Below are positions 22,220 through 45,746 of a stretch of DNA of 64,000 nt, one piece after another. The stretch lies in the NCBI RefSeq assembly GCF_009914755.1, contig NC_060926.1; one strand, given 5' to 3'. The stretch comes from the human T2T-CHM13v2.0 reference genome, Homo sapiens. Numbering within the stretch: position 1 is the first letter of the stretch; each line of letters opens with the position of its first letter. A model generated the notes under the pieces. That model was given only the letters and a program-made list of their open reading frames with translations. It had not been told where the DNA came from and did no database searches. The position numbers were made by a program, and so were the translations under genes.

Positions 22220-22679
22220 AAACTGAATTGCACATTCTATTCTAGATGTTGATACAATGATGGTTATTGAAATCTGATTTTTTGCAAATTAATAAATGAG
22301 CTACAGATGTGCAAATAGAGAAGTCATTATTCTATATTTGTTTCTGAAATCTAGTTCCCTATTTCTGAGAGTTGCAGGGGTTATGCCAGAAAATTGCTGA
22401 CCAGATAGTCACAAAGAGGTATTACCAGATGGTCTCACAGTATATTGGCAATGTTACGATGATCCAGGTCCAGAAACTTGACTTTTTCATAACCAATATT
22501 GTATTGTCAATCCCATAGTTATAGACCTGGATTCTTTTTTAAAAAATTCACTGATTTTCAATGAAAAAGAAAATTGTCGGTTCAAAGATGGCCAAATAGG
22601 AACAGCTGTGGTCTGCAGCTCCCAGCATGATTGATGCAGAAGATGGGTGGTTTCTGCATTTCCAACTGAGGTACCTGGT

Positions 22680-23012
22680 TCATCTCATTGAGACTGGTTG
22701 GACAGTGGGTGCAGTCCACGGAGGGCAAGCTGAAGTAGAGCGGGGCATCACTTCACTCGGGAAGCACAAGGGGTTAGGGGATTTCCCTTTCCTAGCCAAG
22801 GGACGCCATGACAGACTGTACCTGGAAAAACGGGACACTCCCACCCAAATACTACACTTTTCCCAAGGTCTTAGTAACTGGCAGACAAGGAGATTCTCTC
22901 CTGTGCCTGGCTCAGTGGGTCCCACGCCCATGGAGCCTTGCTCACTGCTAGCACAGCAGTCTGAGATAGAACTGGGAGGCAGCAGCCTGGCTTGGGGAGG
23001 GGCATCCACCAT
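22680..23012 (-). CDS. L1 antisense ORF0 homolog, open and extended (110 aa); translation unproven
   Basis: MVDAPPQARLLPPSSISDCCASSEQGSMGVGPTEPG..IWVGVSRFSR resembles L1HS ORF0 (MAGAPPPASLPPCSLISDCCAS..VGVTRFSR); start context gcaATGG. Confidence 0.6.
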   Translation of the reverse strand: MVDAPPQARLLPPSSISDCCASSEQGSMGVGPTEPGTGENLLVCQLLRPWEKCSIWVGVSRFSRYSLSWRPLARKGKSPNPLCFPSEVMPRSTSACPPWTAPTVQPVSMR

Positions 23013-23610
23013 TGCTGAGGTTTGAGTAGGTAAACAAAGCGGTTGGGAAGCTCAAATTGGGCGGAGCCCACTGCAGCTCCACAAGGCCTACTGCCTCTAG
23101 ACTCCACCTCTGTGGGCAGGGGATAGCTGAACAAAAGGCAGCAGAGAACTTCTGCAGACATAAACGTCCCTGTCTGACAACTCTGAAGAGAGTAGTGGTT
23201 CTCCCAGCACGGCATTTGAGCTCTGAGAACAGACGGACTGCCTCCTCAAGTGGATCCCTGACCTTCGTATAGCCTAACTGGGAGACACCTCCCATTACGG
23301 GCCGACAGATGCCTCATATAGGTGGGTGCCCCTCTGGGGCGAAGCTTCCAGAGGAAAGATCAGGCAGCAATATTTGCTGTTCTGCAATATTTGCTGTTCT
23401 GCAGCCTCCACTGGTGATACCCAGGCAAACAGGGTCTGCAGTGGACCTCCAGCAAACTCCAGCAGACCTGCAGCTGAGGGATCTGACTGTTAGAAGGAAG
23501 ACTAACAAACAAAAAGGAATAGCATCAACATCAACAGAAAGGACATCTACACCAAAATCCTATCTGTAGGTCACCAACATCAAAGACCAAAGGTAGATAA
23601 AACCACAAAG

Positions 23611-24636
23611 ATGGGGAGAAACCAGAGCAGAAAATCTGAAAATTCTATAAATCAGAGCACCTCTTCTCCTCCGAAGGATCACAGCTCCTCGCCAGCAATG
23701 GAACAAAGCTGGGCAGAGAATGGCTTTGATGAGTTGACAGAAGTAGGCTTCAGAAGGCCAGTAATAACAAACTTCTCTGTGCTAACGGAGCACGTGTGAA
23801 CCCATTGCAAGGAAGCTAAAAACCTTGAAAAAAGGTTAGACAAATGGCTAGCCAGAATAAACAGTGTAGAGAACACCTTAAATGACCTGATGGAGCTGAA
23901 ATCCATGGAACAAGAACTTTGTGATGCATGCACAGGCTTCAATAGCCAATTAGATCAAGTGGAAGAAAGGGTATCCATGATTGAAGATCAAATTAATGAA
24001 ATAAAGCAAGAAAACAGGGTTAGAGAAAAAAGAGTAAAAAGAAATGAGCAAAGCCGCCAAGAAATATGGGAATATGTGAAAAGACTAAATCTACATTCAA
24101 TTGGTGTACCTGAAAGGGTTGGGAAGAATGGAACCAAGTTGGAAAACATTCTTCAGGATATTATCCAGGAGAATTTCCCCAACCTAGCAAGGCAGGTCAA
24201 CATTCAAATTCAGGAAATACAGAGAACACCACAAAGATACTCCTCGAGAAGAGCAACCCCAAGACACATAATTGTCAGATTTGCCAAGGTTCAAATGAAG
24301 GAAAAAATGTTAAGGGCAGACAAAGAGAAAAGTCGAGTTACCCACAAAGGGAAGCCCATCAGACTAACAGCAGATCTCTTGGCAGAAACCCTAAAAGCCA
24401 GAAGAGAGTGGGGGCCAATGTTCAACATTCTTAAAGAAAAGAATTTTCAAACAAGAATTTCATATCCAGCCAAATTAAGCCTCATAAGTGAAGGAGAAAT
24501 AAAATCCTTTACAGACAAGCAAATGCTGAGAGATTTTTTCACCACCAGGCCTGTTTTACAAGAGCTCCTGAAGGAAGCACTAAACATGGGAAGAAACAAC
24601 CGATATCAGCCATTGCAAAAACATGCCAAACTGTAA
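23611..24636 (+). pseudogene. L1 ORF1p with a single premature stop (TGA at 23797-23799)
   Basis: ORFs 23611-23799 and 23890-24636 share a frame with no other stop between them; ENFPNLARQ, RISYPAKLS and REWG motifs. Confidence 0.92.
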
Positions 24637-24699
24637 AGATCATCAATGCTATGAAGAAACTGCATCAATTAACAGGCAAAATAACCAGCTAACATCATA

Positions 24700-42800: not shown

Positions 42801-43300
42801 CAATTTTGTTGATCTTAAAAAAAATCTCCTGGATTCATCGATTTTTTGAAGGTTTTTTTGTGTCTCTATTCCTATCAGTTCTGCTGTGATCTTAGTTATT
42901 TCTTGCCTTCTGCTAGCTTTTGAATGTGTTTCCTGTTGCTTCTCTAGTTCTTTTAATTGTGATGTTAGGGTGTCAATTTTAGATCTTTCCTGCTTTCTCT
43001 TGTGGGCATTTAGTGCTATAAATTTCCCTCTACACACTGCTTTAAATGTGTCCCAGAGATTCTGGTACGTTGTGTCTTTGTTCTCAATAAATAAAGAACA
43101 ACTTTATTTCTGCCTTCATTTTGTTATTTACCCAGTGGTCATTCAGGAGCAAGTTGTTCAGTTTCCATGTAGTTGTGCAGTTTTGTGTGAGTTTCTTAAT
43201 CCTGAGTTATAATTTTATTGCACTGCGGTCTGACAGACAGTTTGTTGTGATTTCTGTTCTTTTACATTTGCTGAGGAGTGCTTTACTTCCAACTATGTGG
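39874..43300 (-). mobile_element. L1PA6/7-type 3' half (EN end to poly(A)), minus strand
   Basis: Poly(T) ~39864-39888; ORF2 peptides in ORFs 40556-40954, 41246-41665, 41850-42314 and 42789-43037; ends at aactatgtgg (43300). Confidence 0.95.
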
Positions 43301-44124
43301 TGAAGGATATGAACAGACACTTCTCAAAAGAAGACATTTATGCAGCCAACAGACACATGAAAAAATGGTCATCGTCACTGGCCATCAGAGAAATGCAAAT
43401 CAAAACCACAATGTGATAACATCTCACACCAGTTAGAATGGCGATGATTAAAAAGTCAGGAAACAACGGGTGCTGGAGAGGATGTGGAGAAATAGGAACA
43501 CTTTTACACTGTTGGTGGGACTGTGAAGTAGTTCAACCATTATGGAAGTCAGTGTGGCGATTCCTCAGGGATCTAGAACTAGAATTAACATTTGACCCAG
43601 CCATCCCATTACTGGGTATATACCCAAAGGATTATAAATCATGCTGCTATAAAGACACATGCACACATATGTTTATTGCGGCACTATTCACAATATCAAA
43701 GACTTGGAACCAACCCAAATGTCCAACAATGATAGACTGGATTAAGAAAATGTGGCACATATACACCATGGAATACTATGCAGCCATAAAAAATGATGAG
43801 TTAATGTCCTTTGTAGGGTCATGGATGAAGCTGGAAACCATCATTCTCAGCAAACTATCGCAAGGACAAAAAACCAAAGACCGCATGTTCTCACTCATGG
43901 GTGGGAATTGAACAATGAGAACACATGGACACAGGAAGGGGAACAACACACACTGGGGCCTTTTGTGGGGTGGGGGGCAGGGGGGAGGGATAGCATTAGG
44001 AGATATACCTAATGCTAAATGACGAATTAATGGGTGCAGAACACCAATATGGCACATGTATACACATGTAACAAACCTGCACGTTGCGCACATGTACCCT
44101 AAAACTTAAAGTATAATTAAAAAA
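43301..44124 (+). mobile_element. L1PA4/5-type 3' end (non-inverted arm of a twin-primed insertion)
   Basis: ORF2 C-terminus (ORF 43438-43911, CWWDC..RMFSL); 3'UTR aatgctaaatgacga; short A tail; TSD acctacagcta at 44126-44136. Confidence 0.93.
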
Positions 44125-44125
44125 T

Positions 44126-45746
44126 ACCTACAGCTAAGATTTATATTGAATAGCAAAGTGCTGAATTTTTTTTCCTAAATTAAGAAATAAGATAAGTAGT
44201 GCATTCTCACTACTCTTATTGATTATACTATTGGAAGTTCTAGCCAATTCACTAAGACAAGGGAAGGAAATGAAAAGCATACAGATCAGAAAGTAAGAAA
44301 TAAAACTGTCCTTATTTGCAAATGCATTGATTATCTATGTAGAAAATTCTGAAGAATCTACAAAAAACTCCTAGTACTAATAAATGAGTTCTTTATGGTT
44401 GCAGAATACAAGATAAACATACAAAATTGTGCTGAAGTATTTGGACTTCCACAAGAAAAAGAAAAAAAAAGAGCCTCAACCTAAGTCTTGCACCTTATAC
44501 AAAGATGAATTCAAAATAGATCACAGACATATATATAAAATGTAAAATTAAAGTTTTTTAGAAAAAGAAAAGGAAAGAATTTTTAGAATCTAGGACAAGG
44601 CAAACAGTTCCAATACTTAATGCCAAAAATATAATCCATAAAAGAAAAAAATGATAAAGTGGACTTCATCAAAATTAAAAACTTTTGCTCTGTGACTAAA
44701 GCCTTGTTTAGATGATGAAAAGACAAGCTATATGTTGGGGAAAAATATTTCCAAACCACATAGCCAAGAAAGGACTAGTATCTAGAACATATGAAGAAAT
44801 CTCAAAACTAAACAGTGAAAAAAAATGCTATTTGAACATGGGCAAAAAGGAACGGATAAATATTTTACAAAAGAAAATACACAGATGATAAACAAACTTA
44901 TGGAAGATGTTCAACATCATTAGCCACAGAGAAATGCAAATTAAAACCACAATCAATGAGACAACCCTGCAACCCCATCTGAAAGGCTAAAATGAAGAAA
45001 TAATTACAATATTGAATGCTGATGAGAATACAGAGAAACTGGATTACTCATAAATACTGGCAGGAATGTAAAATAGTACTGCCATTCAGGAAAACAGTTT
45101 GACAATCTGTACCTTCAATTACCATATAACTCAGCAATTGTACTCCTGGGCATTTATTTCAGAGAAATAAAGAATTTGTTCATATGAAAACCTGTACATA
45201 AACGTTTATAGCACCTTTATTGTAATAGTTCCAAACTGGACACTATTATAAAAGGACACTATTACAAAATGTTCCAAACTGGACACTATTACAAAAGGAC
45301 TATTACAAAATGTCCTTAAGTGAGTAAATTTTTAAGTACATTATGGTACATCTACATCATGAAACACTACTCAGCAATAAAAAGTAACAAACTATTGATA
45401 TATACAACAACCTGAATGAATAATCATACTGAGTAAAAAAGGCCAATCTCAAAAGTTTACATATTATGATCCACTTATATAATATTTTTGAAATGACAAA
45501 ACTGTAGAAATGGGGAACAGATTTGTGGTTGCAAAGGATTAAGCGGGGATTGTGTGTTGAAGGATAAAGGTTGTAGCTATAAAAGAGTAACATAAGGAAT
45601 CCTTTTGGTGATGGAAACGTCCTGTTTCTTAGCTGTACCAAGGTCAGCATACTGTTGTGATGTTGCAGCAGTTTTGAAAGATGCCTCCATTGGAGGAAAC
45701 TGAAAAACTGCATATGAAGCTATAATTAATTCAAAAAAATGTTAAA
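44126..45746 (+). mobile_element. Old L1M (L1MC/MD-like) ORF2 3' part + 3'UTR
   Basis: ttggaagttctagcca..aaactgtccttatttgcaaatg..ggacttcatcaaaattaaaaacttttgctc..ccattggaggaaactg. Confidence 0.85.
45228..45315 (+). repeat. Local ~44-bp tandem duplication within L1M (gttccaaactggacactatta..)
   Basis: Seen directly. Confidence 0.85.

What the first reader, a model, noticed from the sequence alone, without database searches (positions are those of the whole stretch)
22564..44136. ~17.9-kb inversion mediated by two inverted L1s, readable from swapped TSDs
Seen in sequence: (1) The L1 starting at 22579 is preceded by aaaaagaaaattgtc (22564-22578). Its partner occurs reverse-complemented beside the poly(T) of the minus-strand L1, gatgattttcttttt (39859-39873, rc aaaaagaaaatcatc). 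The match is 13/15, and both mismatches fit opposite decay of one CpG (TG vs CA). (2) The plus L1 stops at 26792 against tagctgtaggttttt (26793-26807), whose reverse complement matches aaatacctacagcta after the poly(A) at 44122-44136. (3) An older L1M is cut at exactly that TSD, with its pieces on opposite strands 17 kb apart. (4) By recalled diagnostics, the left L1 switches from PA6/7-type to PA4/5-type near 25,400 (aaccgctcaac, gggtacataac, ccatgatcaagtgggc), while the minus L1 stays PA6/7-type and the 43301-44124 piece is PA4/5-type. Inference: flipping ~25,380-43,235 restores a ~6.2-kb full-length L1 with direct TSDs and a twin-primed L1 with direct TSDs. Recombination between inverted L1s is an established inversion mechanism. 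The event must postdate the younger insertion. Whether it is fixed, lineage-specific or polymorphic cannot be seen here.
Basis: partly seen in the sequence, partly recalled or inferred. Interest (0 to 1): 0.9.

Follow-up and report, generated by a model that had tools for sequence, protein, structure and literature searches.

The report
L1-mediated 17.9-kb inversion, human chr2
A 17.9-kb stretch inside an intron of the human lncRNA gene SCHLAP1 was flipped, most likely by recombination between two oppositely oriented L1 retrotransposons; this is a clean example of a known mechanism with no visible effect on any exon.

Summary

- **Swapped TSDs.** Only the two swapped, reverse-complement TSD pairings match, at 13/15 and 14/15. 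The other 10 pairings score 2-7/15.
- **Old L1 restored.** Undoing the flip in silico rejoins an old L1 ORF2 fragment across TSD2. 3 of 9 and 5 of 6 paralogous copies align across the restored join, against 0 of 6 for two control joins.
- **Chimeric left L1.** I compared the element with 56 genomic L1 copies. It carries the type of the minus-strand L1 at 9/9 diagnostic sites up to L1 position 2720. It carries the other type from position 2823 on.

Best explanation (0.85): a full-length L1 recombined homologously with the inverted arm of a 5'-inverted L1. This is retrotransposon recombination-mediated inversion, an established mechanism.

One oddity remains. The exchange sits within 92 nt of the edge of the 1.5-kb homology. 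The layout also matches the insertion-coupled inversions recently described in tumours, a rival I put at about 0.07.

Lineage, fixation and polarity could not be tested, because no primate genome or second human haplotype was available. The locus is ordinary in kind.

The parts
22564..22578 (+). TSD1, left copy (aaaaagaaaattgtc), directly 5' of the full-length L1 start
   Evidence: 13/15 to the reverse complement of 39859-39873; mismatches TG vs CA
22579..25311 (+). 5' part of the older L1 ('L1a'), L1 ruler positions 1-2730. It carries the same type as the minus-strand L1.
   Evidence: ruler; 'O' state at 9/9 diagnostic sites 1605-2720. These columns lie outside the stretch used to pick the panel.
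25309..25400 (+). Left breakpoint interval (L1 ruler about 2728-2822). It includes a 67-nt run identical to the partner arm (25315-25381, ruler 2734-2800).
25401..26792 (+). Part of the left L1 that comes from the inverted arm of the younger L1 ('L1b'), ruler 2823-4234. It ends at TSD2 with a 2-nt overlap (TA).
   Evidence: 'Y' state at 7 sites, 'O' at 3 clustered sites, 1 unassigned; states at 2823 and 2859; the end against TSD2.
25988..26069 (+). Gene-conversion patch in the left L1, identical to 42519-42600 on the other strand. It holds three variants that both arms share against at least 95% of panel copies, and an 'O' state at ruler 3508.
26793..26807 (-). TSD2, copy now lying reverse-complemented at the left end of the flipped block
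   Evidence: 14/15 to 44122-44136
26793..26862 (-). Piece of an old L1 ORF2 fragment (L1M-like) that continues at 44137 once the flip is undone
26808..39858 (.). Flipped single-copy block (13,051 nt) with interspersed repeats. It is intronic to SCHLAP1 and holds no annotated exon.
   Evidence: size; hub annotation in the finding; (the flanks of TSD1 are single copy)
39859..39873 (-). TSD1, copy now lying reverse-complemented at the right end of the flipped block
39874..43304 (-). Minus-strand L1 ('B'): poly(T) at 39874-39893, then L1 ruler 6161 down to about 2731. It is the 3' part of L1a. At most its last 92 nt or so (43,210-43,304) could come from L1b.
   Evidence: 'O' state at 22 of 25 diagnostic sites
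43210..43304 (-). Right breakpoint interval
43299..44124 (+). Direct 3' arm of L1b ('C'), ruler 5326-6152, with a short A tail. It is joined to B through GTGG(T) microhomology.
   Evidence: 'Y' at 3 of 4 sites, and only 2 of these differ from B
44122..44136 (+). TSD2, right copy (aaatacctacagcta)
44137..44951 (+). Continuation of the old L1 fragment that L1b interrupted

Best explanation
Proposed sequence of events:

1. An old L1 (L1M-like) lay at this place.
2. A full-length L1 ('L1a', 6,161 nt) inserted on the plus strand at TSD1.
3. A second L1 of a slightly different and probably younger type ('L1b') inserted about 13 kb downstream, into the old L1, at TSD2.
4. L1b arrived as a 5'-inverted (twin-primed) copy. 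Its inverted arm covers L1 positions 2731-4234 and its direct arm covers 5326-6152 plus the tail.
5. The inverted arm of L1b and the matching 1.5 kb of L1a formed an inverted repeat.
6. A homologous exchange between them flipped everything in between, about 17.9 kb. The exchange lay within the first 92 nt or so of that homology, at window 25,309-25,400 and 43,210-43,304.

The result is what we see today:

- a left L1 that is L1a up to the exchange point and L1b after it;
- a minus-strand L1 that is almost wholly L1a, abutting the direct arm of L1b;
- one copy of each TSD carried to the other end and reverse-complemented.

Shown: the anatomy, the swapped TSDs, the restored old L1 and the chimeric left L1. 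Inferred: that the exchange was homologous recombination after both insertions, and the order and ages of the insertions. The flipped DNA is intronic to SCHLAP1 and holds no annotated exon, so the event is probably neutral.
For: - TSDs: only the swapped reverse-complement pairings match, at 13/15 and 14/15. The other 10 pairings score 2-7/15, and such matches are very rare in the window.
- Old L1: alignments cross the restored TSD2 join in 3 of 9 paralogs (shown). They also do so in 5 of 6 further paralogs, chosen because their match began at the TSD, by 7-55 nt. With two control joins, 0 of 6 cross.
- Register: the join of the left L1's 5' part to the reverse complement of the minus L1 is colinear with independent L1 copies.
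- Chimera: the left L1 has the state of the B-like cluster at 9/9 diagnostic sites in ruler 1605-2720, which lie outside the stretch used to pick the panel. It has the other state at 2823, 2859, 2991, 3570, 3798, 3867, 3973, 4014 and 4164. Comparing O and Y counts on the two sides (9/0 versus 3/8) gives Fisher p=0.0014.
- The minus L1 is 'O' at 22 of 25 sites.
- Ages: L1b parts keep more ancestral CpG (9/17 versus 7/32, p=0.053). They also carry fewer private changes on the same columns (41/1668 versus 67/1690, p=0.014).
- An 82-nt patch with variants shared by both arms shows that the arms exchanged sequence.
- Mechanism and TSD logic are as in Lee et al. 2008, PMC2603318 (passages read).
Against: - The exchange lies within 92 of the 1,504 nt of homology, next to its edge. 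Under a uniform expectation that is about a 6% coincidence.
- The expected L1b-derived tip of the minus L1 (92 nt or less) holds no diagnostic site, so the chimerism of the second element is not shown.
- L1b as a twin-primed copy needs a 1,091-nt gap between its arms (4234 versus 5326). One tumour cohort reports a median of 14.5 bp.
- The age difference is weak. Counting only variants seen in no panel copy, 14/1279 versus 21/1300 is not significant (p=0.31). CpG retention on the same columns, 9/17 versus 4/17, gives p=0.16.
- Panel copies were chosen by likeness to the two overlapping arms, so type calls inside the overlap are biased toward the result. Only the flanks are free of that bias.
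- TSD1 is A-rich and its flanks are single copy, so it has no paralog test.
- No outgroup and no second haplotype was available. The un-inverted state has not been seen.
Confidence: 0.85

Rival explanations
1. Insertion-coupled inversion. Two L1 reverse-transcription events were under way at TSD1 and TSD2 at the same time. The four DNA ends were then joined crosswise ('DSB exchange', second-strand synthesis in trans), so the flip arose during insertion and not later.

In this model the two poly(A)-primed cDNAs were joined to each other by microhomology, giving the right junction. The cDNA primed internally at position 4234 from the TSD2 end switched onto the other RNA near position 2800. It then ran to that RNA's 5' end, giving the left junction.
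For: - The layout is that reported for reciprocal inversions in tumours. One junction holds two 5'-truncated L1s in inverted orientation, joined at their 5' breakpoints, each with its own poly(A). The other junction holds an interstitial L1 fragment. The TSD copies are split between the junctions (bioRxiv 10.1101/2024.08.27.596794, section 9 read; 10.1101/2024.12.14.628481, passages).
- It explains without coincidence why the type switch in the left L1 (2721-2822) meets the end of the minus L1 (2731).
- There is GTGG(T) microhomology at the B/C joint.
Against: - It needs two RNAs of different L1 types inserting 13 kb apart in one germline cell, plus an in-register template switch.
- The events in print are from tumours and induced-expression cells with very high L1 activity, as far as the passages I read show.
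- L1b parts look younger than L1a parts: CpG kept 9/17 versus 7/32, and private changes 41/1668 versus 67/1690. This evidence is weak.
- The 67-nt identical run at the switch is hard to keep for tens of millions of years. The overall substitution rate between the arms is 7.2%, so P(no difference in 67 nt) is about 0.007. A later conversion could explain it under either model.
Confidence: 0.07
2. Inversion by two breaks and end joining that happened to fall in two L1s, or a replication template-switch event, without use of L1 homology.
For: The exchange lies at the very edge of the homology. Lee et al. 2008 report many inversions with a retrotransposon at only one breakpoint (passages).
Against: - Both junctions are in register on the L1 ruler, with no gain or loss.
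- The exchange falls in a 67-nt run of perfect identity, the third longest of the overlap.
- Breaks at homologous L1 positions in two elements by chance are very unlikely.
Confidence: 0.04
3. There is no biological inversion. Either the block between the two inverted L1 arms is mis-oriented in the assembly, or the TSD matches are chance beside two unusual L1 insertions.
For: Inverted repeats can mislead assemblers. TSD1 alone is A-rich and weak.
Against: - The chance reading fails on the old L1, which becomes contiguous only after the flip: 8 of 15 paralogs cross the join against 0 of 6 in controls.
- It also fails on TSD2, at 14/15 with a 10/10 complex core.
- An assembly error would leave the L1s un-chimeric in reality, but the arms are only 91.4% identical over 1.5 kb. 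From general knowledge, not tested here, long reads span such arms easily.
- Even an assembly error would only mean that the other orientation is the true one. The chimeric left L1 is read within a single contiguous element.
Confidence: 0.02

Closest known systems
Retrotransposon recombination-mediated inversion (RRMI; L1-RMI) of Lee, Han, Meyer, Kim and Batzer 2008 (PMC2603318)
   Same: Two oppositely oriented L1s span the two breakpoints. The elements become chimeric. The TSDs no longer match within an element but match across elements. No sequence is gained or lost. The size, 17.9 kb, is near their mean of 14.3 kb for human-specific L1-RMI (Table 1 as quoted).
   Different: One partner here is only the inverted arm of a 5'-inverted L1, so the homology is 1.5 kb and ends at an internal L1 joint. 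The exchange lies within 92 nt of that end. Their set was defined by a human-chimpanzee difference. The lineage of this event is unknown, and I could not open their locus table (supplements closed).
Human polymorphic inversions mediated by inverted L1s, such as HsInv0341 (L1PA3 repeats, 20.8 kb; Aguado et al. 2014, PMC3961182, table passages read)
   Same: Similar size, with inverted L1 copies at both ends.
   Different: Those repeats are 6.2 kb long. From general knowledge, not read here, they are highly identical. The arms here are 1.5 kb and 91.4% identical. This locus is not among the inversions listed in the passages I read. Polymorphism here is untested.
Twin-primed (5'-inverted) L1 insertion (Ostertag and Kazazian 2001, recalled; as described in bioRxiv 10.1101/2024.08.27.596794)
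   Same: After the flip is undone, L1b has an inverted 5' arm, a direct 3' arm with an A tail, 15-nt TSDs, a 2-nt overlap at the internal priming site and 4-5 nt of microhomology at the arm joint.
   Different: 1,091 nt are missing between the arms, against a reported median of 14.5 bp.
Reciprocal inversions from synchronous L1 insertions or exchange of ORF2p-induced breaks in tumours (bioRxiv 10.1101/2024.08.27.596794; 10.1101/2024.12.14.628481)
   Same: The junction architecture is the same: two tail-out truncated L1s in one junction, an interstitial tail-less L1 in the other, and split TSDs.
   Different: Here the tail-less L1 is an in-register chimera of two L1 types, and the two types seem to differ in age. 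That fits later homologous exchange better. Those published events are somatic.

Membership tests
L1 recombination-mediated inversion (RRMI) | Two L1 sequences in opposite orientation span the two breakpoints | tested here: met
   25312-26794 (+) versus 43301-41801 (-): 91.4% over 1,507 columns
L1 recombination-mediated inversion (RRMI) | TSDs do not match within the present elements but match across them in reverse complement | tested here: met
   13/15 and 14/15 for the swapped pairs, 2-7/15 for the other 10 pairings
L1 recombination-mediated inversion (RRMI) | Both breakpoint elements are chimeras of the two ancestral elements | tested here: inconclusive
   The left L1 is clearly chimeric: 9/9 'O' sites, then mostly 'Y'. 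The minus L1 could be chimeric only in its last 92 nt or less, where no diagnostic site exists.
L1 recombination-mediated inversion (RRMI) | The exchange is in register, with no gain or loss | tested here: met
   Ruler colinear with panel copies; no gap at ruler 2731-2900 in either arm
L1 recombination-mediated inversion (RRMI) | The ancestral un-inverted arrangement is seen in another species or haplotype | not testable with these tools
   No primate or second human assembly is held. The flanking-repeat test stands in for it at TSD2 only.
Twin-primed 5'-inverted L1 (for L1b) | Inverted 5' arm, then a direct 3' arm with poly(A), the whole flanked by direct TSDs | tested here: met
   After the in-silico flip: arms at ruler 4234-2731 and 5326-6152, with TSD2 on both sides
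Twin-primed 5'-inverted L1 (for L1b) | Arms meet at nearly the same L1 position (small deletion or duplication) | tested here: not met
   A gap of 1,091 nt (4234 versus 5326). The reported median deletion is 14.5 bp, and the passages I read gave no upper range.
Insertion-coupled reciprocal inversion (synchronous L1 events) | One junction with two tail-out 5'-truncated L1s, the other with a tail-less L1 fragment, and TSD copies split between junctions | tested here: met
   compared with the description
Insertion-coupled reciprocal inversion (synchronous L1 events) | Both L1 inserts are of the same age and no intermediate state ever existed | tested here: inconclusive
   CpG kept 9/17 versus 7/32 (p=0.053) and private changes 41/1668 versus 67/1690 (p=0.014) lean against it. 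Unique-only counts are not significant (p=0.31). The intermediate state is not testable here.

The most novel reading that the evidence does not exclude
The flip was not a later recombination. It was made during retrotransposition itself: two concurrent L1 integrations 13 kb apart whose ends were joined crosswise, with a template switch between the two RNAs. That would be a germline, evolutionarily fixed counterpart of the 'synchronous L1' reciprocal inversions so far described, in what I read, only in tumours and induced-expression cells. The junction architecture is the same, and this model explains why the type switch in the left L1 meets the end of the minus L1.
Probability: 0.07. Interest if true: 0.75.

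Novelty: new member of a known kind. Interest (0 to 1): 0.35.

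Why it matters
This is a textbook-quality case of an L1-driven inversion whose whole history can be read from one haplotype: the swapped TSDs, an older repeat healed by undoing the flip, a chimeric element and a gene-conversion patch. That makes it useful as a worked example and as a positive control for scanners that look for inversions from repeat anatomy alone.

It changes no annotated exon, since it is intronic to the lncRNA SCHLAP1, and it adds no new mechanism. Its one open point is whether the flip came after both insertions or during them. That point bears on whether the insertion-coupled rearrangements now seen in tumours have also shaped germline genomes. Primate assemblies could settle it at this locus.

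Tried and rejected
- **Paralog test at TSD1.** Both flanks (22231-22578 and 39500-39873) are single copy in the genome, matching only themselves. TSD1 therefore has no independent support of the kind TSD2 has.
- **Dating the two L1s by private substitutions against the panel.** Both elements exceed the panel medians. The 'private' measure is confounded by lineage variants that the panel under-represents. Unique-only counts show no significant difference. I kept this only as weak evidence.
- **The 67-nt identical run as proof of a recent event.** About 0.74 runs of that length are expected somewhere in the overlap, and two longer runs exist. I rejected it as a dating tool.
- **An exchange point at the 3413-3537 'O' patch.** The left L1 is 'Y' and the minus L1 'O' at 2823, 2859 and 2991. 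I read the patch as a separate conversion.
- **A single-RNA origin for the left and minus L1s (a 1.5-kb internal duplication).** The arms differ at subfamily-level sites, so I rejected it.
- **Literature.** Three full-text searches found no mention of an inversion at this locus: (SCHLAP1 + inversion, 16 papers, listing only; none of the 15 listed titles or abstract openings concerns a germline inversion here). The polymorphic-inversion table passages shown in PMC3961182 list chr2 only at 241 Mb. The locus may well be listed there.
- **A larger second panel of old-L1 paralogs.** I fetched six short stretches instead.

Full report
**Anatomy**

The window is human T2T-CHM13 chr2:181,226,001-181,290,000, inside an intron of SCHLAP1 (hub annotation; place confirmed). 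A self-comparison and a 6,161-nt L1 ruler built from the window's own pieces give the layout.

- 'A' is a plus-strand L1 at 22579-26794, covering ruler positions 1-4234.
- 'B' is a minus-strand L1 at 39874-43304, running from ruler 6161 down to 2731, with its poly(T) at the left.
- 'C' is a plus-strand 3' piece at 43299-44124, covering ruler 5326-6152.
- A and B overlap on the ruler at 2731-4234. There they are inverted repeats, 91.4% identical over 1,507 columns.
- C is 88% identical to the 3' end of B.

**The observation**

Of the 12 ways to pair them, directly or as reverse complement, only two score high. Left-of-A against left-of-B scores 13/15, and right-of-A against right-of-C scores 14/15, both as reverse complement. 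The other 10 pairings score 2-7/15.

Such matches are rare. Of 127,972 15-mers in the window, 3 reach 13/15 to TSD1 and 2 reach 14/15 to TSD2, counting each 15-mer itself and its partner. TSD1 is A-rich and lies next to a poly(A) tail, so it is weak alone. Its two mismatches, TG against CA, are what two independent decays of one CpG would leave; that part is inference. TSD2 has a 10/10 complex core.

**Independent test of the flip**

I joined the reverse complement of 26808 onward, one TSD2 copy, and 44137 onward in a script. I then compared this restored join with paralogs of the flanking old repeat taken from the same genome.

- In the first set of 9 paralog loci, 3 (L002, L008, L009) align in one piece across the join at 71-76% identity. 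The alignment shows the target site once, inside an L1 ORF2-like sequence.
- In a second set of 6 loci, chosen because their match to the right flank began at the TSD, 5 extend 7-55 nt past the join into the flipped left piece, and 1 stops at the TSD.
- With two control joins (the left block un-flipped, and the other end of the block), 0 of 6 extend.

So 26793-26862 (minus strand) and 44137 onward (plus strand) were once one continuous element, and the younger L1 inserted into it. The flanks of TSD1 are single copy, so that site has no such test.

**The left L1 is a chimera**

I fetched 56 genomic L1 copies, the best-scoring matches to the A arm and to the B arm. I laid them on the ruler. They cluster into a group of 36 ('Y'), a group of 14 plus 2 ('O'), and a group of 4.

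At 34 sites where the two main groups differ in allele frequency by at least 0.5:

- A is 'O' at 9/9 sites between ruler 1605 and 2720.
- A is then 'Y' at 2991, 'O' at 3413, 3508 and 3537, and 'Y' at 3570, 3798, 3867, 3973, 4014 and 4164. One site, 3945, is unassigned.
- B is 'O' at 22 of 25 sites.
- C is 'Y' at 3 of 4 sites, but only two of these differ from B.

At 2823 and 2859, B shares its state with the small group and part of 'O' (7 and 9 copies). A shares its state with 33 of 34 and 34 of 34 'Y' copies.

A caution applies. The panel was picked by likeness to the two arms, so calls inside the overlap lean toward this result. The 9/9 result in A's 5' part and the calls in B's 3' part lie outside the stretches used for picking and are free of that bias. 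The contrast between A's left part and A's overlap (9/0 versus 3/8) gives p=0.0014.

The switch therefore lies between ruler 2721 and 2822. I could not check their subfamily meaning or the names PA4/5 and PA6/7.

**What the flip restores**

Undoing it gives three things.

- A 6,161-nt full-length L1 with direct TSD1 copies. It is colinear with independent copies across the join.
- A 5'-inverted L1 with direct TSD2 copies. It has a TA overlap at the internal priming end and GTGG(T) microhomology where the arms meet.
- The contiguous old L1.

Both TSDs begin with a run of A. That fits the T-rich nick site of the L1 endonuclease, which is established knowledge that I recall and did not test here.

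**Mechanism**

The best reading is homologous exchange between the full-length L1 and the inverted arm of the second L1, after both had inserted. This is the retrotransposon recombination-mediated inversion of Lee et al. 2008. That paper used the same TSD logic and reported 21 L1-mediated cases between human and chimpanzee (PMC2603318; abstract and passages).

Supporting details:

- Both junctions are in register on the L1 ruler.
- The exchange falls in a 67-nt run of perfect identity between the arms, the third longest run in the overlap.
- An 82-nt patch (A 25988-26069, B 42519-42600) shows that the arms have traded sequence by gene conversion. It holds three variants that A and B share against at least 95% of panel copies, plus an 'O' state in A.

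**What does not fit neatly**

- The exchange lies within 92 of the 1,504 nt of homology, right at its edge. That is about a 6% coincidence.
- The expected L1b-derived tip of B is too short to test.
- The restored 5'-inverted L1 lacks 1,091 nt between its arms. A tumour cohort reports a median internal deletion of 14.5 bp.

The present layout is also the one reported for inversions made during L1 insertion in tumours. One junction holds two tail-out truncated L1s, the other holds a tail-less L1, and the TSDs are split between them (bioRxiv 10.1101/2024.08.27.596794, section 9; 10.1101/2024.12.14.628481, passages).

That rival would explain the edge coincidence. It would need two RNAs of different type inserting together in the germline, plus an in-register template switch.

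The evidence that the two L1s differ in age leans against it but is weak:

- CpG kept 9/17 versus 7/32, p=0.053.
- CpG kept on the same columns 9/17 versus 4/17, p=0.16.
- Private changes 41/1668 versus 67/1690, p=0.014.
- Variants seen in no panel copy 14/1279 versus 21/1300, p=0.31.

I put later homologous exchange at 0.85, the insertion-coupled origin at 0.07, homology-independent breakage at 0.04, and artefact or chance at 0.02.

**What is not known**

Which lineage carries the flip, when it happened, and whether humans vary for it could not be tested. No primate genome or second human haplotype is held. The event must be younger than the second L1.

I found no mention of this locus in print in three full-text searches or in the inversion table passages shown from PMC3961182.

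**Verdict**

The kind is known, so this is a new member of a known kind. There is no visible functional effect. Interest is moderate to low (0.35). One open mechanistic question would raise it if primate genomes answered in favour of the rival.

Noticed in passing
window 26872-27119 (+), with 26793-26862 (-) and 44137 onward (+): The old L1 that the younger L1 hit is itself 5'-inverted. In 7 of 9 paralog loci that hold both pieces, the two pieces lie in the opposite relative orientation to the restored locus. About 140-180 nt between them are missing here. The other 2 loci matched only the first piece. This is the classical small-gap twin-priming pattern.
   Followed up: partly
window 25988-26069 (+) and 42519-42600 (-): An 82-nt run identical between the two inverted L1 arms. 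It holds three variants (ruler 3464, 3467, 3473) that both arms share against at least 95% of 56 panel copies, and an 'O'-type state in the otherwise 'Y'-type arm. I read it as a gene-conversion patch.
   Followed up: partly
window, after 25492 (ruler 2915-2936): The left L1 has a private 22-nt deletion followed by a cluster of private substitutions at ruler 2939-2942. It is unrelated to the breakpoint.
   Followed up: no
window 3714-4498 (-), 9815-10078 (-), 63694-64000 (-): Further L1 fragments, at 82%, 66% and 84% identity to the ruler. They play no part in the inversion.
   Followed up: no
window 21899-22200, 29701-29993, 32810-33105: Three mutually similar repeats of about 300 nt (75-81% identity), all in the same present orientation, one outside and two inside the flipped block. 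I did not name them.
   Followed up: no
loci L045, L047, L049, L050 (G000 C9, C21, C14, C13): Four L1 copies on different chromosomes form a tight cluster with almost no unique variants (median 0.001). They look like copies of one segment spread by segmental duplication and not by separate insertions.
   Followed up: no
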